From an uncultured Actinomycetes bacterium (GTDB lineage: Bacteria > Actinomycetota > Thermoleophilia > Gaiellales > Gaiellaceae), in assembly GCA_963796405.1 (NCBI GenBank), contig CAWCLL010000002.1, forward strand, positions 32,510 to 96,509: a stretch of DNA of 64,000 bases, given 5' to 3'. Of this stretch, positions 8,033 through 29,454 are shown in pieces. The notes below the pieces were generated by a model. That model made no database searches and had not been told where the DNA came from. It saw only the letters and a program-made list of their open reading frames with translations. Each line of letters begins with the position of its first letter. Within the stretch, counting starts at the first letter, position 1. A program made the translations under genes and the position numbers.

Positions 8033-8814
8033 GGAAGCGAGCGCCCGAAGCTGATCTCGGTCGAGCCCAGGGTGACCACGTCACCGTCCCGCAGGCGCTC
8101 GCGCTCGACCTGCTTCCCGTTGACGAGGGTTCCGTTGGTCGATCCGAGATCGACGATCCAGTACGTGGCGCCCTCCTGGCGGAGCTCGGCATGGCGGCGG
8201 GAGACGTTGAGGTCGGAGACGTGGATGTCGCAGGTTCGCGAGCGCCCGAGCACGACCCGCGGCGACGTGACCTCCTGCTTGCGGCCGGCGATCGTCAGGG
8301 TGACGATCTCCTGCTCGGCCGGGGCCGGCGGTGCGTCGTCGTCGGCTTCCGGAGCGGGAACGGGCGCGCGGTAGATCATCGTCTGCCCGGCGGGCTGGTC
8401 GAGCGGCAGCTCGGGGAGCGCCTCGCCCGACGGCACGTCGGCGTCCGCGGAGACGAGACGGGTCGCGATCCCGAACTCGCCGACGGCGAGGTCCGCGTCC
8501 GTGGTCACGAGCACGTCCGGCGCGGTGAGGAGCGCGTACCGCTCGCGGCGCGCGTGCTCGGCCAGGTACTCCTCGAGCTCGCCCACGAGCGACTCCTCGT
8601 ACCCCGCGAGCTGCTGCCGGTCGGGCGGGGAGAGATAGATCGTGTACTCGTTCGGCACGTACACGCGCGAGACGGAGACGGTGCGGTGGTCGTCCATCTC
8701 CTTCGCGAGCTTGCGCGCCAGCTCGATGGGCTGGACGTGCGTCCGGAACGCGCGGCCGAAGACGCCCTCGAACAAACCCTCGATCTTGGATTCGATCGTG
8801 CGAAACACGCTCAT
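8029..8814 (-). CDS. fhaA: DUF3662 + FHA-domain protein (FhaA-like)
   Basis: [24 protein letters not shown]-terminus. The C-terminal FHA domain is [20 protein letters not shown]...[12 protein letters not shown]. The ATG at 8812-8814 was confirmed by codon counting. Confidence 0.9.
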
Positions 8815-8839
8815 CGGTGGCTTCCCACCCGGGTTGAGT

Positions 8840-10458
8840 CTACCCGCGTGCTCCCGCCGCAACGGCGCCCGCAACGCCCCACGCAAGCGCGACGAGGAGC
8901 ACGGAGACGACCCCGGCTCCCGCTGCGACGACGCCCGCGAGCAGCACCGCTCCGACCGCGAGCACGCCGTAGCGCGAGCGGCGGCGGGCCAGCGGCAGGA
9001 TCGCGGCGGCTGCTCCGGCGACGGCGGCTGCCGCGGGCACGAGCGGTGCGCCGAGGAGCGCCCCGTAGAGGGCGGCGCCGACCTCGACCGGCGAGTCGAC
9101 CGGCGTGATCCGCAAGGGATCCGCGGGCTCGCCCGCGGGCGGAAGGCCTTCCTTCGCGACTCCGGCCGTGAGCGCCGCGGCGAGGACCGCGAGCGCAGCC
9201 TGCGCCGCGCGCCGTCGCGATGCCGCGTGCGGGCTGGACGACCAGCGGGACGAGCGCGAGGAGACCGACGGGCGCGAGGAGCGGTCCCGACACGAACAGC
9301 AGCCCGTAGCGCGCGTCGCGCCACGCCACGGCGAGCCACGCGAGCGCGAAGGCTCCGTAGAGGGCGGCGGCGCCCTGCGAGACGTTTCCGATGGGAAAGA
9401 CGGGCGCGGCGAGGGCGACCGCGAGCCCCAGGCGCGGATCGAACCAGGCCGCGAGCCCCGCGCCGAGGGCGATCGCGACGACGAGCGCCGCCGGCCAGAA
9501 GGGGAGCAGCGTCGCTCCTAGAGCGGCCGTCGATGACGGCCAGGCCGACTGGCAGAGCGCGCTTCGGCCACTCCGGGCGCGTCCGCGGGCGGGTACTGGG
9601 AGCGCCGCGCGGCCGGGCCGTCCTCTTGGCCGGAGCGGAGCGAAGGGCGGAACGGAGCTCCGAGGCGAACGCCGAGGCACGCGGGCGGTTGTCGGGATCG
9701 AGCGACAGCGCGCCGTCGACCGCCGCGAGCAGCCGGCGTGGCAGGTCCCGGCGCTCGCTGCCGAGAGGCGGGGCGCCCGCCTCGATGGCCGTGGCGACCT
9801 CCTGCAGCGGAAGCCCCCAGAAGGGATGCCGTCCCGCAAGCGCCTCCCAGACGACGACGCCGACCGACCAGACGTCGCTCTCCGCCTGAGCCTCGGCGCC
9901 TGCGAGCCGCTCGGGCGCGATGTACGCGAGCGTTCCGGGGACGTCTCCGACGTTCGTGAGCGTGTCGGCGCCGTCGAACTGCGCGAGGCCGAAGTCGAGC
10001 AGGCGGGTCGCGACCTCGTCCCGGTGCTCGAGCAGGATGTTCGACGGCTTGACGTCGCGGTGCACGATCCCCATGCGGTGCGCGTGGGCCAGCGCGTCCA
10101 GCACCTGGGCCGCGATCTCGACGGCGTCGGCGTCGCCGACCTCGTCCATCCGCATCGCCTCGCGCAGCGTGCGCCCGGCGACGTACTCGTACGCGATGTA
10201 GACGTGGCCGGAGTCGTGGCCGACGTCGTACGCGCGCACGCAGCGGTCGTGGCGCAGACGGCGCGCGGCGAGCGCCTCGCGCTCCGCGCGCGCGGCCGCC
10301 TTCCCTTCGCGCGTGATGATCTTCAGCGCGACGTCGAGCCCCGTCTGCTCGTCGCACGCGAGCCAGACCGAGCCGGAGCCCCCGCTTCCGAGCGGGCGGA
10401 CCGGCCGGTAGCGGCCGAGGACGAGCTCTCGGGTGGAGGGAATCGCGAGGGACGACAC
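8840..10458 (-). pseudogene. Ser/Thr protein kinase fused to a polytopic membrane C-terminal region; frame broken near 9600 and near 9225
   Basis: Kinase motifs GSGGSGSVWLA, HRDVKPSNILL, DFGLA and APERL in ORF 8029..10458. Hydrophobic helices continue in ORFs 8811..9839 and 8840..9115. Confidence 0.75.
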
Positions 10459-12250: not shown

Positions 12251-12772
12251 CTACGCGGCCGCTGCGGTTTTCTCGAGCCCCGGGAGGTACGTGCGCCAGA
12301 CGTCCGGGATGTGCTCCGCGGTCAGGCGGATGAAGAGGACCGGCGTCGGTGGGCGCGGAGTCGTCCGCAGCGTCATGCTGATCTCCTCCAGCAGGCGGTC
12401 GCCCTTGCGGTGGTTGCACGGCGCGCACGAGGCGACGACGTTCTCCCACACCGACGTTCCGCCGCGCGACCGCGGCACGACGTGGTCGAGCGTGAGCCGG
12501 TTCGAGCCCGACCCGCAGTAGGCGCACTGCCAGCCGTCTCTCGCGAAGAGGACGCGCCTGGAGATCCTCCGCGTCACGCCTCTCGGCACGCGGACGTACG
12601 TCTTCAGGCGGATCACGTTCGGTCGTGCGAAGTTGGTGGTCGCCGACCGCATCGGCCGGTCGTGGTGCTCGAGGATCTCCGCCTTGCCCTTCCACACGAG
12701 CACGTGCGCGCGGCGTAGCGAGCAGACGTTCAGAGGCTCGTAGCTTGCGTTCAGGACGAGTACCCGCTCCAC
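12251..12772 (-). CDS. HNH endonuclease
   Basis: 173-aa ORF with CAYCG...LTLDHVVPRSRGG...NVVASCAPCNHRKG. Confidence 0.8.
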   Translation of the reverse strand: MERVLVLNASYEPLNVCSLRRAHVLVWKGKAEILEHHDRPMRSATTNFARPNVIRLKTYVRVPRGVTRRISRRVLFARDGWQCAYCGSGSNRLTLDHVVPRSRGGTSVWENVVASCAPCNHRKGDRLLEEISMTLRTTPRPPTPVLFIRLTAEHIPDVWRTYLPGLEKTAAAA

Positions 12773-12867: not shown

Positions 12868-13860
12868 ATGGCCACAGCAGCAGTCGTCGGCGCCTCGGGC
12901 TATGCGGGGCAGGAGACTCTCGACCGGGTGCTCTCGCACTCCGGCCTCGAGCTGTACGCGCTCGGGTCGGACACGCTCGCGGGGCAGCCCGCGAACGCGC
13001 TCGACCCGCGTCTCGGCCGCAACGGCTGGAGCCGGATCCCGCGCTTCATCACGAACGACGCCGCTCTCGAGAGCGGTGCCGACGTCGTCTTCCTGTGCCT
13101 GTCGCACGAGCAGGCGGCGTCCGCCGAGGCGCCGCAGCGGAGCGTCGTCGTCGACCTCTCCGGCGCGCACCGCTTCGTCGACCCGGCGGTCTACGACGGC
13201 TGGTACGGCTTCCGGCATCCGAAGCCGGAGCAGCTCGGATCGTGGTCGTACGGGCTCCCCGAGGTGAGCCCGCCGGCGGGGCGCCTGGTCGCGAACCCGG
13301 GCTGCTACGCGACCGCCGCTCTGCTCGCACTGTGGCCGATCCGCGAGGAGATCGAGGCGCAGGGTGTCGTCGTGGACGCGAAGTCGGGGACGACGGGAGC
13401 GGGCCGGTCGCTGACCGCGAGCTCGCACGCCGGCACCGTGCTCGAGAACGTCTCGCCGTACCGCGTCGGCGCCCACCAGCACGCGCCCGAGATCGCCTCG
13501 CTCCTCGGCTTCCCGGTCGCGTTCGTCCCGCACCTGCTCCCGATCCGCCGAGGCCTGATCGCCACGTGCTACGTGCGCTCGACCGGCGCCGATCTGCGGG
13601 CGCTGCTCGAGGAGCACTACGCGGAGAGCCATGTCGTCTCGGTGCTGCCCGAGGGCGTCGTTCCCGAGCTCGGCCGGGTCCAGCAGACCGACGGCGCCGA
13701 GATCGGCATCTTCGAGGACCGGCTCACCGGCTCGACCGTGATCGTCTGTGCGATCGACAACCTCGGCAAGGGTGCTGCCGGCCAGGCGATCCAGAACGTC
13801 AACCTGCTCTTCGGCTTCGCCGAGACCGCCGGGCTGCGGCTTTCCGGGGTGCTCGTCTGA
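12868..13860 (+). CDS. argC: N-acetyl-gamma-glutamyl-phosphate reductase
   Basis: MATAAVVGASGYAGQE...NPGCYATAALL...AKSGTTGAG...NLGKGAAGQAIQN. Confidence 0.9.
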   Translation: MATAAVVGASGYAGQETLDRVLSHSGLELYALGSDTLAGQPANALDPRLGRNGWSRIPRFITNDAALESGADVVFLCLSHEQAASAEAPQRSVVVDLSGAHRFVDPAVYDGWYGFRHPKPEQLGSWSYGLPEVSPPAGRLVANPGCYATAALLALWPIREEIEAQGVVVDAKSGTTGAGRSLTASSHAGTVLENVSPYRVGAHQHAPEIASLLGFPVAFVPHLLPIRRGLIATCYVRSTGADLRALLEEHYAESHVVSVLPEGVVPELGRVQQTDGAEIGIFEDRLTGSTVIVCAIDNLGKGAAGQAIQNVNLLFGFAETAGLRLSGVLV

Positions 13861-15023
13861 TGTCCGTGACCGCGGCGCAGGGTTTTCACGCCAGCGGCGT
13901 CTCGGCCGGCATCCGCAAGTCCTCTCCCGATCTCGCGCTCGTCCGGTCGGTGCCCCGCGCGGTCGGCGGGGCGGTGTGGACGACGAACCGCGTCCAGGCG
14001 GCGCCGGTCGAGGTCTCGCGCCGCCACCTCGAGCTGGCCGAGCCGCAGGCCGTCGTGATCAACTCCGGTATCGCGAACGCGGCGACGGGCGCGGCCGGGA
14101 TCGTGGACGCGCAGCTGACGGCCGCCGAGGTCGCACGCCACCTCGGGCTCGTGCCCGAGGAGGTCGTGGTGCTCTCGACGGGCGTGATCGGCGTTCCGCT
14201 CCCGATGGAGAAGGTGCTCGCCGGGGTCGAAGACGCCGCCGGGGCGCTCGACGCGGGCGGCAGTGCGGCGGCCGCGCAGGCGATCCTGACGACCGACAAC
14301 GGGCCGAAGCAGGCCGTCACCGCTGCCGAAGGCTTCACCGTCGGAGGGATGGCGAAAGGCGCGGGGATGATCCATCCGCGCCTGGCGACGATGCTCGCGG
14401 TCGTGACCACGGACTACCCGCTCGAGCCGGGCGAGCCGGTCGAGCTCCTGCGGACAGCCGTCGACGCGAGCTTCAACCGGATCTCGGTGGACGGCGAGTG
14501 CTCGACGAACGACGCGGTCGTGCTGCTCGCGAACGGCGCGAGCGGAATCGCTCGCGATTCGGTTAGGGACAGCGAGTTCGCCGCTGCGCTGAACGACGTG
14601 TGCGCGAGCCTCGCCCGCCAGATCGTCGAGGACGGCGAGGGCGCGACCGTGCTCCTCGAGATCCGGGTCGCCAGCGCGTCCTCGGAAGAGGAAGCGCTGG
14701 CGGTCGCGCGCAGGATCGCGACGTCGCCGCTCGTCAAGACGGCGGCGTTCGGGCGCGACCCGAACTGGGGCCGCGTGCTCGCCGCCGCCGGCTCCGCACC
14801 GTGGAACGGCGGCTTCGCGCGCCTCGATCCCGAGCGGCTGAGCGTCGCCTTCGACGGGACGAAGGTCTTCGAGCAGGGCGCGCCCACCGGCGCCACACCT
14901 GCACTCGGAGGAGCAGCCGTGGCGATCGATCTCGACCTCGGGCTCGGCGACGGATCCGCCGCCTACCTCGCGTCCGACCTCACGTACGATTACGTGAAAC
15001 TGAACGCGGAGTACACGACGTGA
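13860..15023 (+). CDS. argJ: Bifunctional ornithine acetyltransferase / N-acetylglutamate synthase
   Basis: GFHASGVSAGIRK...MAKGAGMIHPRLATMLAVVTTD...DGECSTND...DLTYDYVKLNAEYTT. The ATG overlaps the argC stop. Confidence 0.9.
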   Translation: MSVTAAQGFHASGVSAGIRKSSPDLALVRSVPRAVGGAVWTTNRVQAAPVEVSRRHLELAEPQAVVINSGIANAATGAAGIVDAQLTAAEVARHLGLVPEEVVVLSTGVIGVPLPMEKVLAGVEDAAGALDAGGSAAAAQAILTTDNGPKQAVTAAEGFTVGGMAKGAGMIHPRLATMLAVVTTDYPLEPGEPVELLRTAVDASFNRISVDGECSTNDAVVLLANGASGIARDSVRDSEFAAALNDVCASLARQIVEDGEGATVLLEIRVASASSEEEALAVARRIATSPLVKTAAFGRDPNWGRVLAAAGSAPWNGGFARLDPERLSVAFDGTKVFEQGAPTGATPALGGAAVAIDLDLGLGDGSAAYLASDLTYDYVKLNAEYTT

Positions 15024-15688
15024 GCCGGATCGTCGTCAAGGTCGGCGGGCGGGTCGCGGAAGTGTCGGCAGTCCACGTTCTCGAGCACGTGCAGGCAGGC
15101 AACGAGGTCGTGGTCGTCCACGGCGCCGGACCTCAGATCAGTGCCGAGCTTGCCCGCAGGGGGATCCGTGCCGAGTTCGTGAACGGCCGCCGCGTTACGA
15201 GTCCAGCGGCCGCCGCCGTTGTGCGAGAGTCGCTGGTCGCCGTCGGGGCCGAGCTTGCCGCCGCACTCGGCCCCGCGGCGCTTCCCCTCGTCGGCGACGA
15301 GATCGGCCTGCGAGCCCGCCCGCTGCCGGAGCTCGGGCTCGTCGGCGAGCCGCTCCCGATCTCTCCGCCTGCAGTCGAGCGGGCGCTCAACGAGGGCCGG
15401 ATCCCGGTCGTCTCGCCGATCGCCGAAGGTCCGCTGAACGTGAACGCCGACGAGGCCGCGAGCGCGCTCGCGATCGGGCTCGGCGCGGAGCGCATCGTCT
15501 TCCTGACGGATGTGCCGGGCGTCTACGTCGAGGGGGCGCTCGCAGAGCGCATCGAGGCCGTCCACGCGGACCGGTTGCTCGCCGAGGGCGCGTTCGAGGG
15601 CGGGATCGTGCCGAAGCTGCTGGCCGGCGTGCGCGCCGCGAAGCTCGGCCTCCGTGTCGAGATCGGCGTGACCGAGGTTCTTGCGTGA
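15020..15688 (+). CDS. argB: Acetylglutamate kinase (short form, GTG start)
   Basis: VSRIVVKVGG...VVVHGAGPQI...NVNADEAASALA. The GTG at 15020 overlaps the argJ stop. Confidence 0.8.
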   Translation: MSRIVVKVGGRVAEVSAVHVLEHVQAGNEVVVVHGAGPQISAELARRGIRAEFVNGRRVTSPAAAAVVRESLVAVGAELAAALGPAALPLVGDEIGLRARPLPELGLVGEPLPISPPAVERALNEGRIPVVSPIAEGPLNVNADEAASALAIGLGAERIVFLTDVPGVYVEGALAERIEAVHADRLLAEGAFEGGIVPKLLAGVRAAKLGLRVEIGVTEVLA

Positions 15689-16824
15689 GCGTTCCCGCGT
15701 CCGGGTTGGAGCGGCTGCTCCCGACGTATGCACGGGCCGACCTCGAGCTCGTCCGCGGCGAGGGCACGCGTGTCTGGGACGCCGACGGCCGCGCGTACCT
15801 CGACTTCGGAGGCGGGATCGCGGTCGTCGGCCTCGGCCACTGCCACCCGGCGCCGCTCGCGGCCGCGAACGCGCAGCTCGAGCGCCTCTGGCACGCGTCG
15901 AACCTCTACCGGACCGAGCCTGCGGAGAGGCTCGCGTCGCTTCTCTCCGAGCGCTTCGGCGGTGCGCAGGCGTTCTTCTGCAACTCCGGCGCGGAGGCGA
16001 TCGAGGCCGCGCTCAAGTACGCGCGCAAGGCGACCGGGAAGCCGGGGATCGTGGCGCTCGAGGGGTCGTTCCACGGTCGCACGCTCGGCGCGCTCTCGGC
16101 GACCGGGCAGCCCGGAAAGCGCGCGGCGTTCGAGCCGCTCGTCCCCGGCGTGAGCTTCGTGCCGCCGAACGACGTCGACGCCTTGGAGGAGGCAGTCGGT
16201 GACGACACGGCGCTCGTCCTCCTCGAGCCGATCCTCGGCGAGGGCGGAGTCGTCCCGCTCGATTCCGGCTTCGTCGCGGCCGCAGCCGACCTCGACGTCC
16301 TCCTCTGCTTCGACGAGATCCAGACAGGCGTCGGGCGCACGGGGTCGTTCTTCGCACACGAGCAGCTCGGCGTGGGCCCGGACCTCGTGACGATGGCGAA
16401 GGCGCTCGCGAACGGGCTGCCGATCGGGGCGCTGCTCGTGGCGGACGAGTCGGCGGGCGCCTTCGTCCCCGGCGACCACGGCTCGACGTTCGGCGGCAAC
16501 CCCGTCGTGTGCGCGGCCGCCTGTGCCGTCGTGGACGCGATCGACGAGGAGCTGCTCGCGAACGTCGTCGAGCAGGGAACCGCGCTTGCCGCCGGCCTCC
16601 GGGAGCTTCCCGGAGTGCTCGAGGTGCGCGGTTGGGGCCTCCTGCTCGGCGCTGTCGTCGAAGGCCCGGCCGGGACGGTCGTGGACGCGTGCCGCGACCG
16701 CGGCCTGCTCGTGCTCAGCGCGGGCGACGACGTGGTCCGGCTCGCGCCGCCGCTCGTCGTCGACGCGGAGGACGTTGCGGAAGCGTTGGGAATCCTCGCG
16801 GACGTGCTTGGAGCGTCTGCATAA
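15685..16824 (+). CDS. argD: Acetylornithine aminotransferase
   Basis: 379-aa class-III aminotransferase (NSGAEAIEAALK, FDEIQTGVGRTG, TFGGNP) sitting in the arg cluster. Confidence 0.9.
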   Translation: MSVPASGLERLLPTYARADLELVRGEGTRVWDADGRAYLDFGGGIAVVGLGHCHPAPLAAANAQLERLWHASNLYRTEPAERLASLLSERFGGAQAFFCNSGAEAIEAALKYARKATGKPGIVALEGSFHGRTLGALSATGQPGKRAAFEPLVPGVSFVPPNDVDALEEAVGDDTALVLLEPILGEGGVVPLDSGFVAAAADLDVLLCFDEIQTGVGRTGSFFAHEQLGVGPDLVTMAKALANGLPIGALLVADESAGAFVPGDHGSTFGGNPVVCAAACAVVDAIDEELLANVVEQGTALAAGLRELPGVLEVRGWGLLLGAVVEGPAGTVVDACRDRGLLVLSAGDDVVRLAPPLVVDAEDVAEALGILADVLGASA

Positions 16825-16845
16825 AGTGCTAGTTTTCTGCATTCT
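16816..16845 (+). promoter_or_regulatory. Candidate ARG boxes upstream of argR
   Basis: TGCATAA (16818-16824) and TGCATTC (16838-16844) are 20 bp apart. This is the same motif and spacing as upstream of argC. Confidence 0.4.
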
Positions 16846-17310
16846 ATGAACCGCCGCGAACGACAGTCCGCCATCCTCGAGCTCGTCCGCGACCGGGCGC
16901 TCTCGACGCAGGCCGAGGTCGCCGCCGCGCTGAAGGAGGCCGGGTTCGACGTCGTGCAGACGACCGTCTCGCGCGACATCGCCGACCTCGGCCTCGTCAA
17001 GGTGCGCGCGCCGAGCGGACGCCTCGTCTACGCGCCGCCCGGGACGACCGACACCGACCGCCTGCGGGCGCTCGCCGCCGCGATGCGCCGGTACGCGATC
17101 GGCATGGAGGCGGCCGGCAGCATGGTCGTCCTCACGACGCCGTCGGGCTACGCGAACGCGCTCGCGCAGGCGATCGACGAGGCGGGCCACCCGGGGATCG
17201 CGGGGACGCTCGCAGGCGACAACACGATCCTCGTGGTCGCGCGCGACGGCACTCCGGCCGCCGTTCTGCGCGAGGAGCTGGCCGGGCACGTACTGGAAGG
17301 AGCCGCATGA
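16846..17310 (+). CDS. argR: Arginine repressor
   Basis: 154-aa ORF. RQSAILELV...TQAEV...GFDVVQTTVSRDI, and a C-terminal GTLAGDNTILVV oligomerisation domain. Confidence 0.9.
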   Translation: MNRRERQSAILELVRDRALSTQAEVAAALKEAGFDVVQTTVSRDIADLGLVKVRAPSGRLVYAPPGTTDTDRLRALAAAMRRYAIGMEAAGSMVVLTTPSGYANALAQAIDEAGHPGIAGTLAGDNTILVVARDGTPAAVLREELAGHVLEGAA

Positions 17311-18515
17311 GCAAGACCGCCGTCGTCGCCTACTCGGGAGGGCTCGACACGAGCTGCATCCTCGCGTGGCTCAAGGAGGACTGGTACGGGTTCGACGAGG
17401 TGCTCGCCGTCCTCGTCGACGTCGGACAGGAGTTCGACCTCGAGGAGTCGATCGTGCGCGCGAACGCCGCGGGCGCCGACGACGTGCTTCTCGTCGACCG
17501 CAAGGACGCGTTCGCGGACGAGCAGTGCGCCCGGGCGATCGTCACGAACGCGCTCTACGAGGGCAAGTACCCGCTCGTCTCCGCGCTCTCGCGACCGGTC
17601 ATCGCGCAGGCCGTCGCCGAGATCGCGCTCGAGTCGGGCGCCGAGGCGGTCGTCCACGGCTGCACGGGCAAGGGGAACGACCAGCTCCGCTTCGAGCTCG
17701 CCTTCAAGGCGCACTACCCGGGAGTCAAGGTCATCGCCCCGCTCCGCGATCGCATCTGGACGCGCGACGAGGAGATCGAGTACGCGCTCGGCAAGGGCAT
17801 CCCGATCACGCACACGGCGGCGTCGCCGTACTCGATCGACGAGAACCTCTTCGGCCGCGCGATCGAGGCCGGCGTGCTCGAGGACCCGTGGAACGCGCCG
17901 CCGGAGGAGCCGTACGCGCTCACCTCCGATCCCGCCTCCGCGCCCGCGCCCGAGGAGATCGTCGTCGGCTTCGAGCGGGGAATCCCGGTCTCGCTCGACG
18001 GCGAGGAGCTTCCGCTCGCGGAGCTGATCGCCCGCGCGAACCGGCTCGCCGGCGCGTACGGGATCGGGCGGCTCGACATGATCGAGAACCGCGCGGTCGG
18101 CATCAAGAGCCGCGAGGTGTACGAGGCCCCGGGCGCGATCGCGCTCATCGCCGCGCACTCCGCGCTCGAGGACGTCGTCCTCACGAAGGACGAGGCACGC
18201 CTGAAGCGGCCGCTCGAGCAGCGCTGGACCGAGCTCGTGTACGAGGGACGCTGGTTCAGCCCCGCGCGCGAGGCGATCGACGCGTTCGTCGACTCGACGC
18301 AGCAGCTCGTCACCGGCGACGTGCGGCTGGAGCTGCGGCCGAACGCCGCCGTCGTGACCGGGCGGCGCTCCCCGCACCTCCTCTACTCGACCGAGCTCGC
18401 CTCGTACGGGACCGGGGAGACCTTCCCGCACGACGCGGCCGAGGGCTTCATCAAGATCTCCTCGCTCGAGACCGAGCTGCACGCGGCTCGCGCACGCGCC
18501 AGAATCGAGGCGTGA
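17307..18515 (+). CDS. argG: Argininosuccinate synthase
   Basis: 402-aa ORF with AYSGGLDTS, ALSRP, GCTGKGNDQLRFE and ENRAVGIKSREVYE. Confidence 0.95.
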   Translation: MSKTAVVAYSGGLDTSCILAWLKEDWYGFDEVLAVLVDVGQEFDLEESIVRANAAGADDVLLVDRKDAFADEQCARAIVTNALYEGKYPLVSALSRPVIAQAVAEIALESGAEAVVHGCTGKGNDQLRFELAFKAHYPGVKVIAPLRDRIWTRDEEIEYALGKGIPITHTAASPYSIDENLFGRAIEAGVLEDPWNAPPEEPYALTSDPASAPAPEEIVVGFERGIPVSLDGEELPLAELIARANRLAGAYGIGRLDMIENRAVGIKSREVYEAPGAIALIAAHSALEDVVLTKDEARLKRPLEQRWTELVYEGRWFSPAREAIDAFVDSTQQLVTGDVRLELRPNAAVVTGRRSPHLLYSTELASYGTGETFPHDAAEGFIKISSLETELHAARARARIEA

Positions 18516-19332
18516 CCACCTGGAAGGGGCGGGTCGAGGGGGCTCTCGACCCGGACGTGTGGGAGTTCCTGCGCGCGGACGACGCGGAGCTCCTGCCGTA
18601 CGACTGCGAGGCCTCGCGCGAGCACGCGGAGCGGTTGCACGCTGCCGGGCTCCTGACGGCGGAGGAGCTCGACGAGGTCGAGGGCCGCCTGGCCGAGATC
18701 GCGCACGATCCGGACGGCTATCTCGAGTCGGACGAGGACGTGCACAGCGCGATCGAGCGGCTGCTCGGCGACGTCGGGCGGAAGATCCACGCCGGCCGCT
18801 CGCGGAACGACCAGGTCGTCGCGGCGCTCGGCTGTACGTGCTCGACGCGTGCGCCGAGGCGCGGGAGGGGATCGACGCGCTCGCGCTCGTCTGCCTCTCC
18901 TTCGCCGAGTCCGAGGCCGAGACGGTCATGCCCGGCTACACGCATCTCCAGCGCGCGCAGCCGGTGACGCTCGGCCACCACCTGCTCGCGTGGGTGGAGA
19001 TGCTCGACCGCGACCGGACCCGCTTCGCGCTCGCCGCCGAGGCCGCGTCCGCGAGCCCGCTCGGCGCCGGGGCGCTGGCCGGCTCGACGCTCGACCTCCC
19101 GCCGCCGGCCGGCCAGATGCGGAACTCGATCGACGCCGTGGCCGACCGCGACTTCGCGCTCGACTACCTCTACGCCGCGGCCGTCCTCTTCACGCATCTC
19201 TCCCGGATCGGCGAGGAGATCGCGCTCTGGGCGACCTCCGAGTTCGGCTTCGTGCGGCTGCCCGAGAGCGCGTCGACGGGCTCGTCGATGATGCCGCAGA
19301 AGCTGAACCCCGACGTCGCCGAGCTCGTGCGT
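18512..19332 (+). pseudogene. argH: Argininosuccinate lyase, 5' fragment (one frame break near 18830; homology ends at 19332)
   Basis: VTTWKGRVEG...GRSRNDQV in ORF 17366..18967. Then YVLDAC...GYTHLQRAQP...SSMMPQKLNPDVAELVR in ORF 18559..20106. Confidence 0.9.
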
Positions 19333-19931
19333 ATTTCGGGTGAGCGAAGCGGCCTTCCTGGCCGGCTTCCTGGCCGCGCGGATGGAGCAGCAGCGCCCCG
19401 GTCGCGATGCGGTCGGTGTCGTCGCCGGTTACCCCATTCCGGCCGTCCAGGACTTCGTGATCGGCTTCCGCGCCGGCGCGCGACGCGCGTCGCGACTGGT
19501 CCGAGTCTTCGCGACTATTCGTACGACTTCCTCGATGCCTCGCGGTGCGGGGCTATCGCCCGGCGTCAGATCGCAACGGGGCGGGAGTCCTCTTCAACGT
19601 GGCGGGTGCCTGCGGATTGGGGACCTCGACGCGGCCCGGGATCGGGGCGCCTGGGGGATCGGCGTCGACGCGGACCAGTCCTTCCTCGGGCCGCACATCC
19701 TGACGAGCGTCCTCAAGGACTTCGAAGCCGCCTTCGTCGCGTTGTTCCGCCGGCTGAAGGCCGGCCGTCTTCCTGCCGGCACACGGTGCTGACCCAGGTC
19801 AAGGAGCCGTCGGTCTCGGCAAGATCAGCCGCCGGGTTCCCGGGCCGCTTCGCGCCGAGCTCGAGCGACTCGAGCGCCGGATCGCCAGCGGCGCGATCCA
19901 TGTCCCCGGCGCATTTCCGGATCCGCGATGA
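19333..19931 (+). pseudogene. BMP-family (PnrA/Med-like) substrate-binding lipoprotein, copy A. It is 5'-truncated and starts mid-gene at the argH junction, and it is frame-broken.
   Basis: SEAAFLAGFLAARMEQQRPGRDAVGVVAG...WGIGVDADQSFLGPHILTSVLK in ORF 19340..19792 and neighbouring frames. Confidence 0.7.
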
Positions 19932-20925
19932 CATCACGGGCGATCCTCGTTCTCGGCACGGCTCTCACGCTCCTCGCGCTGACGACTGCGGCCGCTCCGG
20001 CTGCGTCCGAGCAATCGCGCCCCCGAGTGGTGCTCGTCACGGAGGTCGGCTGCGGAGAGGCGTTCGAGCGCATCGTTTGCGGCGGGTTCCAGCGCGCTCT
20101 GCGTAGCACCGGGCTCACGGGACGAATCGTCACGCCCGCTCCGCGTCAGGATCGTGTGGAGACCCTCGAGCTGATCGCGAGTCAGCGCTACGACCTCGTG
20201 ACCGTCTTCGGATACGGCTACTACCAAGTGCTCGGTGAGGCCGCCCGACGCCAACGCGCGGCACGCTTCGCGCTGATGGACGCACGCGCGGAAGCGTGGC
20301 CGGGGTCCCACGCAACGTGCAGGGCGTCATCTTTCGGACGAGCGAGGCCGCGTTCTGGCGGGCTGGCTCGCTCGCGGATGGCGGGCAGCGGCCGGGGAAG
20401 GACGTCGTCGGAGTCGTCGGCGGCCTCGAGCTTCGCTCGGTGCAGGACTTCGTGGTCGCTTTCGAGCCGGCGCGCGTCGCGCCGGTGCGCGGGTCCTGAT
20501 CGGCTACTCGCACGACTTCGACGACCCGACGAAGTGCGCGGCGGTTGCCCGACGCCAGATCGCACAGGGGGCCGGGGCGGTGTACAACGTCGCAGGCGCC
20601 TGTGGGCTCGGCACGCTAGCTGCCGCGCGGAAGGCGGGATCTGGGGAATCGGCGTGGACGCCGATCAGTCCTTTCTCGGCCCGCACATCCTTACGAGCGT
20701 GCTCAAGCACTACGACGCCGGGTTCGTATCGCTGCTACGGCGTGTGAAGACCGGACGCATCCGAACCGGCGGCGACACCGTCCTCACGCTTCGTGAGGGC
20801 GCGGTCGGGCTGGGCAAGATCAGCCGCCGGGTACCCGCGCCGCTTCGAGCGGAGCTCGAACGGCTCGAGCGCCGGATCGCGAGCGGCGCGTTGCGGGTCC
20901 CGGGCGCGTATCGCGATCCCGATGA
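19928..20925 (+). pseudogene. BMP-family lipoprotein, copy B (full-length footprint with signal peptide, several frame breaks)
   Basis: MTSRAILVLGTALTLLALTTAAAPA...; NVQGVIFRTSEAAF in ORF 20296..20499; IWGIGVDADQSFLGPHILTSVLKHYD...GLGKISRRVPAPLRAELERLE. Confidence 0.7.
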
Positions 20926-21826
20926 CGACTCGGTCTCACGCACTCGCGCTAACCGTTCTCGGGGTAGCCCTCGCGCTCGTCGTGCTGGCGATCGTGATCG
21001 CGCCGTCGGCGTCCGGACAGCCCCGCGCCCGAGTCGTGCTCGTCACGGGGTTCTGCGACTCGGGGAACCTCATCTGCCGACCGTTCACGAGAGCCGTGCG
21101 CCGCTCCGGAGTCGGTGGCCGAATCGTCTCGCCCGACTCTCGCGAGGACCCTGATGCAACGCTGTCGTTGCTCGCCCGGCAGGGCTATGAGCCATCGCCG
21201 TGGACCCGTTCTGGGGCGAGACGCTCGCGCGCGTCGCGCCGAAGTTCCCGAAGCAGCGATTCGCGATCGTCGACGTCCCGCTCTCCTATCTCGGTCGTCC
21301 CCGGAACGTCCAGTCGATCATCGCCGGGTGCACGAGGCGTCCTATCTCGCAGGCTGGCTTGCCACGCGGATGGAACAGCGCCGACCGGGTCGGGACGTCG
21401 TCGGCGTCGTCGGCGGCGCGAGGGTTCCGCCTGTCGAAGACTCGTCGTCGGCTTCCGGGCCGGTGCCCGGGCGGCTTCGCCAAAGGTGCGCGTCCTCACG
21501 GGCTACGCGAACGACTTCGGGACCCGACGAGGTGCGAGGCAATCGCGCGCCGTCAGACGCACGCGGTGCGGGCGTCGTCCTCCACGTGGCGAATCGCTGC
21601 GGCTTGGGAGCGCTTCGGGCGGCGAAGCGCGCCGGCGTGTGGGGGATCGGCGTCGACTCGGACCAGTCCTCCCTCGGGCCGCACATCCTCACGAGCGTCG
21701 TGAAGAAGTACGACGCCGTCATGCTGACGCTGCTCCGGCAGGTGCGCGACGGCCGAATCCGTGCGGGCGTCACGACCGAGGTGTCGCTCCGCGGCAACGG
21801 CGCGGGCCTCGGTCGCATCAGTCCTG
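20922..21826 (+). pseudogene. BMP-family lipoprotein, copy C (signal peptide present, frame-broken, 3' end replaced by argH sequence)
   Basis: MTTRSHALALTVLGVALALVVLA...; HEASYLAGWLATRMEQRRPGRDVVGVVGG...VWGIGVDSDQSSLGPHILTSVVKKYD in ORF 21115..21942. Confidence 0.7.
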
Positions 21827-22530
21827 GCCGAGCTCGGGCGGGAAGGCGGGAACGGTGCTCGGGAGGCTCACGGGCCTGCTGGCGGACGCTGAAGCGACGG
21901 CTGCCGAAGGCGGCAGCGACCCGCTCGCGTGCGCGACCGTGACGGCTGCAGGAGCTCGTCCACAAGGGTACGCCGGACCGCGACGTCCAGGAGGAGGCGC
22001 GCGAAGGTCCAGGAGGAGGTCCAAGACCCGTCTTCGCCACCCGCCGCGACGTGCGGCTCGCTCTGCGTGCGCTGGGCGTGCTCGTGAGCGGGCTCGCGGT
22101 CGACCGCGACCGGCTCGCGAAGGCGGCGGCCGACCCGCTGCTCTTCGCGACCGACGCGGCCGAGGCGCTCGTCCGCAAGGGAACGCCGTTCCGCGACGCC
22201 CACGAGGAGGTCGCGGCGAAGGTCCGGGACGGAGCCTTCCGGAAGCCGCGTACGCCGCGTGAGTGCGGCCGGGCTGGTCGAGGCTCGCCGGTCGATCGCG
22301 ACCGGCTCGCGAAGGCGGCAGCCGACCCGCTGCTCTTCGCGACCGATGCGGCCGAGGCGCTCGTCCGCAAGGGAACGCCGTTCCGCGACGCCCACGAGGA
22401 GGTCGCGGCGAAGGTCCGGGACGGAGCCTTCCGGAAGCCGCGGACCGCGGCGAAGCGCCCGACGCCGGGCCCGGGCGGCATCCACGAGGCGCTCGCGGAG
22501 GCGCGGCGCCGCTTCGCCGACAACCTCTGA
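21827..22530 (+). pseudogene. argH: Argininosuccinate lyase, 3' fragment (frame-broken, contains an internal tandem duplication)
   Basis: GKAGTVLGRLTGLLA resumes exactly where the 5' fragment stopped. Then DRDVQEE...LAVDRDRLAKAAADPLLFATDAAEALVRKGTPFRDAHEEVAAKV. Confidence 0.85.
22099..22442 (+). repeat. Direct tandem duplication, 152-bp copies with a 192-bp period, inside the argH 3' fragment
   Basis: 22099-22250 and 22291-22442 are near-identical; I see 3 mismatches. The peptide VDRDRLAKAAADPLLFATDAAEALVRKGTPFRDAHEEVAAKVRDGAFRKP appears twice in ORF 22051..22530. Confidence 0.9.
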
Positions 22531-22552
22531 CGCCGCGTCACCTCGGCGCCCT

Positions 22553-24366: not shown

Positions 24367-25447
24367 ACGAGCGCTCGCAGGCCGTGACGCTCGACCGCCT
24401 CACCAAGCGCTTCGACGACGTCGCAGCCGTGGACGACGTCTCGCTCGAGGTGCGGAGCGGCGAGTTCTTCTCGCTCCTCGGCCCGTCCGGGTGCGGCAAG
24501 ACGACGAGCCTGCGCATGATCGCGGGCTTCGAGCGGCCCGACGCGGGGCGCATCCTCATCGGCGACGCCGACGTGACCGAGACGCCGCCGCACCGGCGGC
24601 CGGTGAACACGGTCTTCCAGAGCTACGCGCTCTTCCCGCACCTGACCGTGGAGGAGAACGTCGCGTTCGGGCTCCGGTTCACGAGCGTGCCGAAGGACGA
24701 GGGCCGCCGGCGGGTCGGCGAGATCCTCGAGGTCGTCTCGCTCGGCGGCTTCGAGCGGCGCCGTCCGCACCAGCTCTCGGGCGGACAGCAGCAGCGGGTG
24801 GCGCTCGCGCGGGCGCTCGTCCTCTCACCCTCGGTGCTCCTCCTCGACGAGCCGCTCGGGGCGCTCGACGCGAAGCTCCGGCGCGGCCTGCAGGTCGAGC
24901 TCAAGGGCCTCCAGCGCGACGTCGGGATCACCTTCCTGTACGTGACGCACGACCAGGAGGAGGCGCTGACCATGTCCGACCGGCTCGCGGTCATGCACGG
25001 CGGCCGGATCCAGCAGCTCGGGACGGCGCGCGAGGTCTACGAGGAGCCCGCGACCGCGTTCGTCGCGGACTTCCTCGGGGTCTCGAACCTCATGACCGGC
25101 ACGGCCGACGGCGCGGGGACGGTGACCGTCGACGGCGTCGCCGCTCGAGGCCCGCGCCGGGGACACGCGCGCCGCCGGCGAGGTGCGGGTCACGATCCGC
25201 CCCGAGCGCGTGGAGCTCGAGGCGGACGGTGTCGGCGGGGCCGAGCCGCCTGCGCTGCACCGTGCGCGAGCTCGTCTACCTCGGCTCGACGACGCAGGTC
25301 TTCGTCCTCACCGAGAGCGGGGCGTCGCTCCAGGCGCTCCTCGCGAACACCGGGCAGCCGCTTCCGTACGCGCGCGGCGACTCGGTCGTCGCGCACCTGC
25401 CGCCGGACGCGCTGCGCGCGCTGCCGGCGGAGGGCTCGGCCTCGTGA
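24363..25447 (+). pseudogene. potA: Spermidine/putrescine ABC importer ATPase, two frame breaks near 25145 and 25245
   Basis: [24 protein letters not shown] and [11 protein letters not shown] in ORF 24165..27287. The TOBE-like C-terminus is split over ORFs 25183.. and 24491..25447. The GTG start overlaps the TetR stop. Confidence 0.85.
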
Positions 25448-26773: not shown

Positions 26774-28157
26774 TCGAGGCGGACGTCGCCGTCGTCGGTG
26801 CCGGGCGCTGCTGGGCTCGCGGCGGCGTCGCGCCTCGTCGCCGAGGGTCGCGAGGTCGTCGTCCTCGAAGCGCGCGACCGCGTCGGCGGCCGGCTCTGGA
26901 ACACCGAGATCGGCGGCGAGGCGAACGAGCTCGGCGGCGAGTGGGTCGCGCCGTACCACGCGCGGCTGCACGAGCTCCTGTCCGAGCTCGGGATCGAGCT
27001 CTTTCCCGCCTACCGTGACGGCGACGACGTGTACGTCGACGAGGCGGGCCGCGCGCACCGGCACGCGGGCGGTGAGAGCGGGCTCTCGTACGCGTCCGAG
27101 CGCGCGCTCGAGGAGGCCGACGCGAAGCTCGACGCGCTCGCGAAGGAGCTCGACCCGGAGGCGCCGTGGGAGCACCCTCGCGCGCGCGAGCTCGACACGA
27201 TCACGTTCGACGAGTGGCTGCGCGCGGAGGTCCGCGACGAGGAGGCGCGCGAGAACCTCGCGTCCTATCTCGCGGACGGCTTCATGACGAAGCCCGCGCA
27301 CGCGTTCTCGCTGCTCCAGGGGCTGTGGGCGATCGCGGGAGCGGGCGGAACGTACGAGCTGTTCGCGGCGGAGCAGTGCCTCGCGTACCGCGTCGTCGGC
27401 GGGTCGCAGCTCATTCCGCTGAAGCTCGCGGAGCGGCTCGGGGAGCGCGTGCGTGCTCGAGGCGCCGGTGCGCGCGATTCGCCGGTCGGGCGAGGGCGTC
27501 GAGATCGACGCGGACTCCGTCACGGTGCGCGCTCGTGCCGCGATCGTCGCGATCCCGCCGAACCTCACCGGCGCGATCACGTTCGAGCCGGCGCTCCCGG
27601 CGTGGCGAATGCGGCTCCAGCAGGCGATCTCGCAGGGGAGCGTGACGAAGTACCTCGCGGTCTACGAGGAGCCGTTCTGGCGCGCGGACGGGCTCTCCGG
27701 CGAGGGCTTCGCGCCGTACCAGCTCGTCCGCGAGCTGTACGACAACTCGCCGCCCTCGGGCGCGGTCGGCGTCCTGTGCACGTTCCTTCCCGGCGAGCAG
27801 GCGGACGAGGTCGCGCGGCTGAGCGACGGCACGCGGCGCGCGGCCGTCCTCGACGGCATGGCGAGCTTCGTCGGGCACCGCGCGCTCGAGGCGACGGATT
27901 TCATCGAGACGGACTGGACCGCGGAGGAGTGGACGCGCGGCGCCTACGCCGCGACCTTCGGCATCGGCGGCCTCACCCGCTTCGGCCCCGACCTGCGCCG
28001 CCCCGTCGGCCCGATCCACTGGGCGTGCTCCGACATCGCCGGCCGCGGGCACATGCACGTGGAGGGCGCCGTCCGTGCTCGAGCTAGTCGCCGGCGGAGG
28101 CGGCTCTCGGCGCAGAAGCCGGCGTCGCGGAAGCTCGCGGCCGCGCTGCGGTTCTGA
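26758..28157 (+). pseudogene. Putrescine-oxidase-like flavin amine oxidase 2 (frame breaks near 26805 and 27450)
   Basis: [29 protein letters not shown]...[12 protein letters not shown]...YEEPFWRADGLSG...WTRGAYAATFGIGGL...PIHWACSDIA. By recall this closely resembles Rhodococcus PuO-type enzymes. Confidence 0.8.
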
Positions 28158-28179
28158 CGGGGAAGCGGCGGTGACCCTC

Positions 28180-29450
28180 GGAGCTAAGGGCAAGGGGATG
28201 GTGGCAGGCGACCTAGTAAACACCGCGTAACGGATACAGGCGCTGGCGGAGCTCGGGACCGTGCTCGTCGGAGAGACGACGCGCAGGGCGTCGGAGGCCT
28301 CGATCGGTTAGCGAGGCAGGCCGCCACGAGTTGAAGGGGCAGGGCGAGCCAGTGACGGTGTGGCAGGCGCTCGAGTCGACTGCGGGACGCGGGGGAGGCC
28401 TCAAGTCGGACACGCTCGAGCCACCGTTCGTCGGCCGCGAGCGACGAGCTCCGTCTCGCTGAAGGAGCTCTTCCATGCGAGCGCGGAGCGAGCACAAGGC
28501 GCACCTCGTCTCGATCGTCGGCATCGCGGGCATCGGGAAGTAGCGCCTTGCCTGGGAGTTCCAGAAGTAACTCGACGGGGTAGGCGCAAAAGACTCACTG
28601 GCATCGAGGGACGGTGACTCGCGTACGGAGAGGGCGTAGCGTTCTGGGCGCTGGCAGAGATGGTGAGGAATGCGGGCAGAGATCGCGGAGGGCGAGGAGG
28701 CCGAGATCTCGCCCGGGCGAAGCTCGGGCCACGCTCGAGCGCTACGTCGACGACGTCGGACGAGCGAGACGTGGATCGAGCCGAGGCTCGCGCAGCTGCT
28801 CGCGCTCGACGGAGGCGATGCGGGAACGAGCATCGGACCTCTTCGCGGGCTGGCGGCTACTTCTTCGAACGACTCGCATAGCACGATCTCGTCGTCCTCG
28901 TGTTCGAGGACATGCAGTGGGCGGACGCGCAGTTGCTCGAGTTCCTCGAGTACCTGCTCGACTGGGCGCGCAGTCACGCGCTTTTCGTAGTCGCGCTCGC
29001 GCGGCCGGAGCTCGGCGACGCGGCATCCGCAGTGGGCGAGACGGAACGCGGAACGCGACGACGCTCTCGCTCGAGCCGCTCCCGGCAGACGCAGGAGCGT
29101 AGAGGTCGTGAACGCCGGTGTACGGTTTGAGAGCCCTCGCGAGAAGTTTTGGGCGGTGAGCGCCGCCGCCGACTTCACTGGGAGCTGATGTACTTAGCCG
29201 ATGGCGATATAAGATAGAGGTTGGTGAGGTCAGGGAGATCTAGAGGAGGTCCGGACGGATGAGCGTCCAGGTGGGTAGGTCGGAACGAATATACAGGATC
29301 GTGGACGCACGATCGAGGCTGTTCCGCAGACGGACCAAGTGTGTTTCGCTACGGCTGGAGGCGATCGGGAGCGTAAGGGGTTTGCGGACGCGGGCCCGTT
29401 ACTAGAACGGCTCGGACGCGTCGGAGCTGAAGGTGCGAGTCGCCGCTGAG
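28180..29450 (+). pseudogene. Decayed relic of an adenylate/guanylate cyclase + STAND/AAA ATPase regulator
   Basis: GDLVNTA*RIQALAE (TAA at 28228), PPFVGRER, HLVSIVGIAGIGK*RLAWEFQK*LDG (TAG at 28541, TAA at 28568) and VLVFEDMQWADAQLLEFLEYLLDWARSHALFVVALARPEL. There are multiple frame changes. The tail from 29100 to 29450 is visibly more AT-rich. Confidence 0.75.
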
Positions 29451-29454
29451 CAGG

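What the first reader, a model, noticed from the sequence alone, without database searches (positions are those of the whole stretch)
18512..22530. argH is split by a 2.5 kb block copied from a lipoprotein gene array, with microhomology at both junctions and no mobile-element genes
Argininosuccinate lyase homology runs from 18512 to ...SSMMPQKLNPDVAELVR and stops at 19332. It resumes at about 21841 with the next expected residues, GKAGTVLGRLTGLLA. The intervening ~2509 bp is not an IS or prophage.

The insert is about 2.5 units of a tandem BMP/PnrA-like lipoprotein gene array. It starts in the middle of a gene, at the position equivalent to ...IFRTSEAAF of copy B. It ends near the 3' end of copy C.

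A 14-bp direct repeat flanks the block: GCCGAGCTCGTGCG (19318-19331) and GCCGAGCTCGGGCG (21827-21840). The same motif occurs natively near the 3' end of BMP copy A (GCCGAGCTCGAGCG, 19854-19867, coding RAELER). The right junction therefore looks like recombination through this microhomology. The left junction shares GCGT with the corresponding site of copy B.

I see no inverted repeats, transposase or integrase. This pattern fits template switching or illegitimate recombination (MMBIR/NHEJ-like) rather than transposition. The upstream genes argCJBD-argR-argG are perfectly intact, so the last step of arginine synthesis appears to be specifically destroyed at this locus.
Basis: partly seen in the sequence, partly recalled or inferred. 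Interest (0 to 1): 0.75.

Follow-up and report, generated by a model that had tools for sequence, protein, structure and literature searches.

The report
BMP gene block inside argH
The arginine gene argH in this Gaiellaceae contig really is interrupted by 2.5 kb copied from a neighbouring-type transporter gene array. That block has single-read sequence quality in an error-prone long-read assembly, so it is probably a rare or single-molecule rearrangement and not proof that the organism has lost arginine synthesis.

Summary
argH runs 18512-19332 and resumes at about 21837-22532. Between the two parts lie 2.5 units of a BMP/PnrA substrate-binding-protein gene array, flanked by a 13/14 direct repeat. 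There is no transposase or inverted repeat.

- In 74 of 74 Gaiellaceae relatives argH is contiguous at exactly this codon.
- I found the donor. An ENA metagenome contig (L081) carries the same array at 98.8% identity. There it starts 66 nt after the argH stop codon, and its copy C has the 10-mer GCCGAGCTCG at the right junction site.
- Of the 30 differences from L081, 17 are single bases missing in the window. These cause all the frameshifts in the BMP copies.
- This indel density is 15-17 times that of the flanks, which themselves carry scattered 1-nt indels typical of Nanopore MAGs.
- The resumed argH part also holds a mosaic "stutter" patch and a 192-bp tandem duplication.

Best reading: a microhomology-mediated, double-template-switch type rearranged molecule from a minority genotype, taken up as assembly backbone and left unpolished. 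A fixed loss of argH, and therefore auxotrophy, is not shown. A technical artefact is not excluded. Interest is low to moderate.

The parts
12868..18515 (+). argC-argJ-argB-argD-argR-argG, intact. argC runs about 12868-13860, argJ to 15023, argB to 15688, argD 15685-16824, argR 16846-17310 and argG 17307-18515.
   Evidence: Each gene gives a single-frame tblastn match to the ORFs of relative L005. No unpaired frameshift indel against 11 relatives between 12868 and 18512.
18512..19332 (+). argH 5' part, codons 1-274. A 1-nt deletion frameshift at 18828/18829 (CTC[C]GG) splits it into two frames.
   Evidence: Pfam Lyase_1 E 8e-50. The deletion is seen against 11 of 11 relatives. About 95% amino-acid identity to L003.
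19318..19331 (+). Left copy of the 14-nt direct repeat GCCGAGCTCGTGCG, which is native argH sequence (codons AELVR).
19328..19340 (+). Left junction. argH ends at ...GTGCG, and block homology to L081 starts at TTCGGGTGAGCG (L081:499-503). Possible microhomology is GCG(T)/GTGCG, and 3 donor bases are missing in the first 8 nt.
   Evidence: Pairwise alignment with L081. L081 sequence.
19333..19925 (+). BMP copy A': the 3' 60% of a BMP/PnrA-type substrate-binding protein gene, starting at ...VSEAAFLAG. It has 5 single-base deletions relative to L081.
   Evidence: Pfam Bmp E 3e-24. It matches the L081 gene 508-1104, which is one open frame there.
19928..20920 (+). BMP copy B: full length with a signal peptide. 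It is broken by 6 single-base deletions and 1 insertion relative to L081.
   Evidence: Pfam Bmp E 1e-35. P0001/L081 match at 94% amino-acid identity.
20919..21826 (+). BMP copy C': starts at its own ATG and lacks about the last 27 codons. It has 6 single-base deletions relative to L081 (one at 20920, on the copy B/C overlap), where it is an intact 330-aa ORF.
   Evidence: Pfam Bmp E 7e-30. L081:2101-3093.
21827..21840 (+). Right copy of the direct repeat, GCCGAGCTCGGGCG. The first 10 nt are shared by donor copy C (L081:3031-3040) and argH, so this is the microhomology joint. 20 donor nt are missing just upstream (21825-21826).
21837..21885 (+). argH resumes (GKAGTVLGRLTGLLA), with a 2-nt deletion and a 1-nt insertion relative to orthologues.
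21885..22030 (+). Scrambled patch of 146 nt where orthologues have 54 nt (TLKGLPLAYDRDLQEDKT). Runs of 9-13 nt match alternately native argH and the downstream 192-nt unit, and the patch is about 80% similar to that unit.
   Evidence: (130 of 163 unit bases matched; random window segments give mean 102, sd 8, max 117).
22030..22532 (+). Remainder of argH to the stop codon, in one frame. It contains a 192-bp tandem duplication (22097-22253 and 22289-22445; 3 transitions differ) with a stutter-like junction at 22258-22295.
   Evidence: TRF score 674, 97% matches. Also. It is the only large tandem repeat in the 64 kb. Orthologues have a single copy.

Best explanation
**What it is.** The contig carries a rearranged allele of argH. 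A 2.5-kb stretch (the 3' part of BMP gene A, all of B, most of C) has been copied into codon 274/275 of argH.

**The donor.** It is a BMP-family substrate-binding-protein gene array. In a closely related co-occurring lineage, represented by ENA contig L081, this array sits directly downstream of argH, 0.9-3.4 kb from the insertion point.

**The junctions.** The left one has 3-5 nt of microhomology. The right one has 10 nt (GCCGAGCTCG), followed by 4 re-copied argH bases. This is what two successive template switches of a growing DNA strand would produce: forward into the array, then back into argH. Equivalently, it is a microhomology-mediated duplication plus deletion.

**Inferred, not shown.** This allele belongs to one or very few sequenced molecules of a minority genotype. 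A long-read metagenome assembler used such a read as backbone. The majority reads, which lack the insertion, could polish the flanks but not the block. As a result:
- the block stays at raw-read accuracy (17 dropped bases in 2.5 kb);
- the adjoining argH 3' part became a hybrid or stuttered consensus.

The frameshifts in the BMP copies and in argH are sequencing errors, not decay. The organism as a population most likely has an intact argH.
For: **Shown**
- The block (window 19335-21824) equals L081:503-3008 at 98.8% identity. There are 12 substitutions, 17 bases missing in the window and 1 extra. 11 of the 17 are outside homopolymers. The L081 reading frames are open at all these sites.
- At the flank rate (about 10 unpaired frameshift indels in 25 kb) about 1 indel is expected in the block. 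18 are seen (P = 6e-17).
- L081:1-33 encodes DARRRFADNL*, the argH C-terminus, and copy A starts 66 nt later.
- The L081 argH end differs from the window's at 8 of 33 nt, so the block and the flanks come from different lineages.
- Donor copy C carries GCCGAGCTCG at the junction site.
- argH is contiguous in 74 of 74 relatives, with no BMP gene in 80 loci. 9 relatives, all MFD Nanopore MAGs, have frameshifts in argH.
- MFD MAGs are Nanopore R10.4.1 data assembled with metaFlye and polished with one Medaka round (PMC12313526).
- The argH N part is as conserved as ArgG (95% vs 93-95% amino-acid identity), so there is no sign of long decay.
- All structural anomalies in the 64 kb cluster in 3.2 kb: the insertion, junction deletions, the mosaic patch and the only large tandem duplication.
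Against: - No reads are available, so read support is inferred only from local consensus quality.
- I could not show that the window comes from a Nanopore assembly. This is inferred from its relatives, from L081 and from the indel pattern.
- The 500 nt of argH after 22030, including the tandem duplication, are in frame and look well polished. That is not obviously expected if the duplication were on a single read only.
- Indels in the flanks are mostly insertions while those in the block are deletions. I explain this as polished versus unpolished sequence, but that is not proven.
- A precise A-B-A structure could also be fixed in a low-abundance strain.
Confidence: 0.5

Rival explanations
1. 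Fixed, genuine gene disruption. The sequenced strain really carries the BMP block in argH, made by the same microhomology-mediated mechanism. It therefore lacks argininosuccinate lyase and is an arginine auxotroph, unless a second argH exists elsewhere. The poor block quality would only reflect low coverage of this strain, or reads of the repeated block being assigned to the other copy during polishing.
For: - The A-B-A structure returns exactly to argH with a 14-nt repeat, which is hard to obtain technically.
- There is no second argH in the 64 kb.
- The region downstream of argH is variable among Gaiellaceae (L082, L085, L005).
- A second lineage-specific 1.4-kb insert of gene fragments lies at 28076-29470, so this lineage may tolerate such events.
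Against: - The block has 17 times more indels than the flanks, spread evenly across it. Reads of 5-10 kb spanning a fixed 2.5-kb insertion would have polished it as well as the flanks.
- The argH N part shows no relaxed constraint.
- argC to argG are perfectly kept. In a fixed auxotroph they would be useless, so at most the event is very recent.
- The block is about 99% identical to a lineage whose argH end differs by 24% from the window's.
Confidence: 0.2
2. Purely technical artefact. No such molecule existed in a cell. The structure arose in vitro (polymerase template switching during library repair or amplification) or in the assembler. The assembler route would involve the graph around argH, where two lineages with different genes downstream of argH were collapsed, with mis-joined edges and hybrid consensus.
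For: - L081 begins 33 nt before the argH stop. That is where a branch edge would start if two lineages were collapsed through argH.
- The 21885-22030 patch interleaves 9-13-nt pieces of two templates. The duplication junction shows 6-7-nt stutters. Both look more like consensus artefacts than mutations.
- The 192-bp duplication lies close to that presumed graph node.
- The block is of raw-read quality.
Against: - Random ligation or in-silico read chimeras do not return to the same gene 14 nt from where they left.
- Assemblers do not join sequences through 10-nt matches.
- Both junctions lie inside genes and are absent from both parental arrangements, so at least one read must contain them.
- The MFD protocol as described uses no amplification. 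This is only indirect evidence, because the window's source is not known.
Confidence: 0.27
3. Insertion of a mobile element (IS, transposon, integrative element or prophage remnant) that carries BMP genes as cargo.
For: A 13/14 direct repeat flanks the block, as a target-site duplication would.
Against: - The whole block is accounted for by 2.5 BMP genes that are colinear with the L081 array. It starts and ends inside genes.
- There is no transposase or integrase and there are no terminal inverted repeats.
- The repeat is explained by a 10-mer native to both partners.
Confidence: 0.01

Closest known systems
Microhomology-mediated template switching (FoSTeS/MMBIR-type templated insertions; short-homology illegitimate recombination in bacteria)
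   Same: - An insertion copied from a nearby donor in direct orientation.
- Microhomology at both joints (10 nt and 3-5 nt).
- A few target bases are re-copied.
- Extra small duplications sit next to the event.
- No recombinase or transposase is involved.

   Different: - Nothing here shows replication or a broken fork.
- The donor is adjacent only in a sister lineage (L081), not in the window's own flanks.
- The event may exist in only one molecule.
Structural errors or minority alleles frozen into long-read metagenome assemblies (metaFlye plus Medaka Nanopore MAGs such as the MFD catalogue, PMC12313526)
   Same: - Scattered 1-nt indels in the flanks and in relatives.
- A block at raw-read accuracy.
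- Hybrid, stuttered consensus next to a structural-variant breakpoint.
- A short sister contig (L081) that begins at the point where two lineages diverge.
   Different: The precise A-B-A junctions with microhomology are not a typical assembler or read-chimera product.
Homology-facilitated illegitimate recombination of foreign DNA (one homologous anchor plus one microhomology joint)
   Same: The block is about 99% identical to another lineage in which it lies next to the homologous gene argH. That gene could serve as the anchor.
   Different: Both ends here are illegitimate joints. The donor's own argH 3' part and the 5' part of copy A are not included, which the anchor model would predict.

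Membership tests
Argininosuccinate lyase (argH, TIGR00838 / Pfam Lyase_1 + ASL_C2) | Full-length match above the curated cut-off | tested here: met
   The two halves were joined, and the frameshift and scrambled patch were repaired using orthologues as a guide. The result scores 388 bits against a cut-off of 279.5. Lyase_1 and ASL_C2 are found on the separate halves.
Argininosuccinate lyase (argH, TIGR00838 / Pfam Lyase_1 + ASL_C2) | One uninterrupted reading frame, as in orthologues (410-411 aa) | tested here: not met
   The frame is interrupted at codon 274/275 by 2.5 kb, by a frameshift at 18828, and by further shifts and a duplication in the 3' part. It is contiguous in 74 of 74 relatives.
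BMP/PnrA-like ABC transporter substrate-binding protein (PF02608) | Pfam Bmp domain above the gathering score | tested here: met
   The three frame-repaired units score 86-123 bits against a cut-off of 24.1. The donor genes in L081 are annotated Bmp.
Insertion sequence / transposon | Transposase or integrase gene inside the element | tested here: not met
   The block is colinear with three BMP genes of L081 and has no room for another gene.
Insertion sequence / transposon | Terminal inverted repeats at the block ends | tested here: not met
   No inverted-repeat pair joins 19333 to 21826.
Insertion sequence / transposon | Target-site duplication not present in the element itself | tested here: not met
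   10 of the 14 repeated bases are native to donor copy C (L081:3031-3040).
Microhomology-mediated templated insertion (MMBIR/FoSTeS-like) | Microhomology at both breakpoints | tested here: met
   Right joint: 10 nt, GCCGAGCTCG. Left joint: GCG(T)/GTGCG, 3-5 nt and weaker.
Microhomology-mediated templated insertion (MMBIR/FoSTeS-like) | Donor template nearby on the same chromosome, with the copy retained at the donor site | tested here: inconclusive
   The donor lies 0.9-3.4 kb downstream of the site in the L081 lineage. In the window argH is followed by a Rieske oxygenase gene, and no second BMP copy exists in 64 kb.
Microhomology-mediated templated insertion (MMBIR/FoSTeS-like) | Arises in vivo during replication or repair | not testable with these tools
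   This needs reads, PCR or culture.
Long-read assembly minority allele or artefact | Local collapse of consensus accuracy confined to the variant segment | tested here: met
   18 indels in 2.49 kb against about 1 expected from the flank rate.
Long-read assembly minority allele or artefact | Few reads support the junctions and most reads support the uninterrupted allele | not testable with these tools
   No reads are available. The window's own record was not retrievable: the exact ArgG look-up was negative, and the best ArgH hit was 91%.

The most novel reading that the evidence does not exclude
A genuine in-vivo double template switch in an uncultured soil actinobacterium (Gaiellaceae). A replicating strand left argH, copied 2.5 kb of the BMP transporter gene array lying just downstream, and re-entered argH through a 10-nt microhomology. 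It left further small templated duplications in the argH 3' part. This would be a natural bacterial example of MMBIR-like complex rearrangement, caught at single-molecule or low-frequency level by long-read metagenomics.
Probability: 0.35. Interest if true: 0.45.

Novelty: new member of a known kind. Interest (0 to 1): 0.22.

Why it matters
- **If the allele is real.** It is a tidy natural example of microhomology-mediated templated insertion in bacteria, with the donor identified to the base. It would also show that long-read metagenomes can expose such rare events.
- **Practical lesson.** A MAG-based metabolic call of 'arginine auxotroph, argH pseudogene' for this organism would probably be wrong. 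Blocks of raw-read accuracy inside otherwise polished long-read contigs are a usable warning sign for minority or artefactual structural variants.

Tried and rejected
- **Looking up the window's own record.** The exact ArgG look-up found nothing. No protein in the 5.8-billion collection carries the argH|BMP junction. P0131 looked like a junction-spanning hit (65% coverage), but it is only a frameshifted ordinary ArgH on contig L084.
- **JGI metagenome scans.** The scans for the left junction and for a 45-mer of copy C both returned 0 hits, which is uninformative.
- **'The native place of the array is between the amine oxidase and permease genes'.** This holds for the JGI relative L082. It does not hold for L005 or L084, which have nothing there, nor for L081, where the array follows argH. 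I rejected it as the window's ancestral state.
- **'The BMP copies are old pseudogenes'.** The frameshifts are window-specific single-base omissions relative to a 99% identical intact array, and indels outnumber substitutions 18 to 12.
- **'The scrambled patch is an old diverged third repeat'.** Its differences are dominated by small indels and it interleaves two templates. The union-coverage test was only weakly significant (139 of 165 bases against 124 ± 7 in controls).
- **Other dead ends.** L085 (P0159) was checked as a possible donor lineage, but no BMP gene follows its argH. One search aligned unrelated snippets and gave nothing.


Full report
**1. What is there**

The window is a 72% G+C stretch from a member of the Gaiellaceae (Thermoleophilia). 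ArgG is 93-95% identical to several MAGs of that family, many of them 'MFD' MAGs.

- The arg cluster argC-J-B-D-R-G (12868-18515) is intact, with each gene in one frame.
- argH starts at 18512. A 1-nt deletion at 18828/9 (CTC[C]GG) shifts its frame, and all 11 compared relatives have the extra base.
- Homology then continues to 19332 (...SSMMPQKLNPDVAELVR; Pfam Lyase_1 39-304 of 312, E 8e-50).
- The next residues expected from orthologues (GKAGT.LGRL.GLLA) appear at 21841.
- In between lie 2.5 units, with a period of about 995 nt, of a BMP/PnrA-type substrate-binding-protein gene (PF02608). They are A' from ...VSEAAFLAG to its stop (19333-19925), B (19928-20920), and C' without its last ~27 codons (20919-21826).
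- The 14-nt direct repeat is present (19318-19331 and 21827-21840, 13 of 14 identical). No inverted repeats bracket the block.
- No other BMP or argH copy exists in the 64 kb.

**2. Comparison with relatives**

A genome scan with ArgG returned 80 loci from as many species.

- In all 74 loci that extend far enough, the two argH parts are adjacent: the C part starts at the base after the N part, in the same frame.
- None of the 80 has a BMP gene within the fetched flanks.
- Orthologues are 410-411 aa.
- Nine relatives show frameshifts inside argH, and all nine are MFD MAGs. These MAGs are Nanopore R10.4.1 data assembled with metaFlye and polished with one round of Medaka (PMC12313526).

**3. The donor**

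A protein search with repaired copy B found one very close hit, P0001, at 94% identity; the next best was 69%. It lies on ENA metagenome contig ERZ25039541:contig_123948 (L081, 6040 nt), which carries three BMP genes followed by a SARP-type regulator on the other strand.

- Window 19335-21824 equals L081:503-3008 at 98.8% identity.
- A base-by-base comparison gives 12 substitutions, 17 bases missing in the window and 1 extra base.
- The missing bases are spread evenly, about one per 150 nt. 11 of the 17 are outside homopolymers.
- Each falls where L081 has an open BMP frame: copy A is open from L081:508, and copy C is an intact 330-aa ORF.

So the roughly 15 frameshifts in the window's BMP copies are window-specific single-base omissions, not gene decay. 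Indels outnumbering substitutions 18 to 12 is not what evolution produces.

**4. Where the donor sits**

- L081:1-33 encodes DARRRFADNL followed by a stop, which is the C-terminus of ArgH. Copy A starts 66 nt later.
- In that lineage the array therefore directly follows argH. The segment copied into the window's argH would lie 0.9-3.4 kb downstream of the insertion point.
- The L081 argH end differs from the window's at 8 of 33 nt, whereas the block is about 99% identical. The block and the window's flanks therefore stem from different lineages.
- The flanks of L081 (the 5' part of copy A, the end of copy C, the regulator) are nowhere in the window.
- After argH the window continues with a Rieske oxygenase gene, TetR, an ABC ATPase and two amine oxidases, as in L005 and L084.
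- In another relative (L082) a four-gene BMP array with the same regulator lies 6.6 kb downstream of argH. In L085 other genes follow argH. The region downstream of argH is thus variable in this family.

**5. The junctions**

- *Right junction.* L081 reads ...GGTCGCATCAG TCCGAAGGTTCCTGCTTCTCTCCGC GCCGAGCTCG ACCAGG. The window reads ...GGTCGCATCAG TCCTG GCCGAGCTCG GGCG GGAAGG, which continues as argH.
  - The 10-mer GCCGAGCTCG is native to both partners (L081:3031-3040 and argH 19318-19327).
  - After it, four argH bases (TGCG, here GGCG) are present a second time.
  - 20 donor bases just upstream are missing, and 2 argH bases just downstream are missing.
  - The 10-mer is common: 15 hits in 64 kb against 3.1 expected, and 4 hits in L081. 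The coincidence is therefore moderate, which I estimate at roughly 1-3%.
- *Left junction.* argH ...GAGCTCGTGCG is followed by TATTTCGGGTGAGCG, where L081 has GTGCGAGGCGTCATCCTTCGGGTGAGCG. That gives 3-5 nt of possible microhomology, and 3 donor bases are missing in the first 8 nt.
- Both joints lie inside genes and exist in neither parental arrangement.
- The structure is what two template switches would give: forward into the array, then back into argH. It is not what transposition gives, because there is no transposase and no terminal repeats, and the 'target duplication' is mostly donor-encoded.

**6. The resumed argH is abnormal**

- From 21885 to 22030 there are 146 nt where orthologues have 54 nt (TLKGLPLAYDRDLQEDKT).
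- This patch is about 80% similar to the 192-nt unit further down: 130 of 163 unit bases matched, against a mean of 102 (sd 8, max 117) for random window segments.
- At finer scale it alternates 9-13-nt runs matching native argH with runs matching that unit. It also contains local re-duplications such as GTCCAGGAGGAGG appearing twice.
- From 22030 the sequence is clean and in frame to the stop at 22532.
- That clean stretch contains a 192-bp tandem duplication (22097-22253 and 22289-22445). The copies differ by 3 transitions. The junction between copies is stuttered.
- It is the only large tandem repeat in the 64 kb.

**7. Sequence quality**

- Outside the block the window carries about 10 unpaired frameshift indels in roughly 25 kb of sequence alignable to relatives.
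  - Their positions are kinase 9214 and 9531, argH 18828, Rieske 23320 and 23429, ABC ATPase 25139 and following, and amine oxidases 26498 and 27451. Most are 1-nt insertions.
- Such damage to many conserved genes, seen also in the MFD relatives, points to a long-read assembly with residual indels.
- At that rate one indel is expected in the block. Eighteen are seen (P = 6e-17).
- The block was therefore corrected by far fewer reads than its flanks.
- A 2.5-kb insertion is easily spanned by long reads. A fixed insertion at flank depth should have been polished equally well.
- The simplest inference is that most reads covering this locus lack the insertion.

**8. Explanation**

- *Best reading (0.5).* A rearranged molecule, produced by microhomology-mediated template switching, was used as assembly backbone and left unpolished. 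It most simply arose in an L081-type genome, where the donor is adjacent. The flanks were polished to the dominant lineage, and the argH 3' part became a hybrid consensus.
- *Rival: fixed disruption giving real auxotrophy (0.2).*
- *Rival: purely technical product (0.27).*
- *Rival: mobile element (0.01).*
- *Shown:* the structure, the donor, the junction sequences, the error distribution and the intactness of argH in relatives.
- *Inferred:* the sequencing platform, the read support and an in-vivo origin.

**9. Novelty and score**

- Microhomology-mediated illegitimate recombination and templated insertions are known, and so are minority alleles frozen into long-read MAGs. This is at most a new, well-documented instance.
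- The organism-level claim that arginine synthesis is lost is not supported.
- Interest is 0.22. If the in-vivo double template switch were confirmed by reads, it would merit about 0.45.

Noticed in passing
window 9214, 9531, 23320, 23429, 25139-25314, 26498, 27451: Single-base frameshift indels, mostly insertions relative to 4-9 relatives. They break a Ser/Thr kinase, a Rieske oxygenase, an ABC ATPase (PotA-like) and two amine oxidase genes. They probably reflect long-read consensus errors rather than pseudogenes.
   Followed up: partly
window 28076-29470: A 1.4-kb stretch absent from relatives L005 and L084, where the amine oxidase and permease genes are 40-80 nt apart. It has lower G+C (66.6%) and no clean reading frame. 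It holds fragments resembling the end of an adenylate cyclase domain and an AAA_16-type regulator (…FEDMQWADAQLLEFLEYLL…). In L082 the equivalent position holds the BMP array plus a SARP-type regulator.
   Followed up: partly
L082:8985-13098 (JGI 3300037506 Ga0394880_0003577), with L081 and L085: The gene content downstream of argH varies among Gaiellaceae. In L082 there are OYE and GCV_T genes, then a 4-gene BMP array with a SARP-type regulator 6.6 kb away. In L081 the BMP array directly follows argH. In L085 HTH and MMPL genes follow argH.
   Followed up: partly
window 12251-12772 (-): A 173-aa HNH-endonuclease ORF just upstream of argC gives a partial match to the IscB HNH region (NF040563, 66 bits, below the cut-off of 175). 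An HNH gene is also present at this place in relative L085.
   Followed up: no
window 41807-42827 and 48103-49064: Four colinear inverted-repeat segments of 89-109 nt at 72-79% identity, about 5-7 kb apart. They are probably two diverged paralogous genes in opposite orientation.
   Followed up: no
whole window: The 10-mer GCCGAGCTCG (codons for AEL) occurs 15 times where 3.1 are expected from shuffles. Microhomology arguments based on it need this background.
   Followed up: yes
L084 (ENA ERZ25039541 contig_153147) 2358-8936: A related arg locus from the same ENA assembly as L081 is heavily fragmented by frameshifts: argC 258 aa, argJ 303 aa, argB 130 aa, and argG split into 204 + 159 aa. This shows the indel load of that assembly.
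   Followed up: partly
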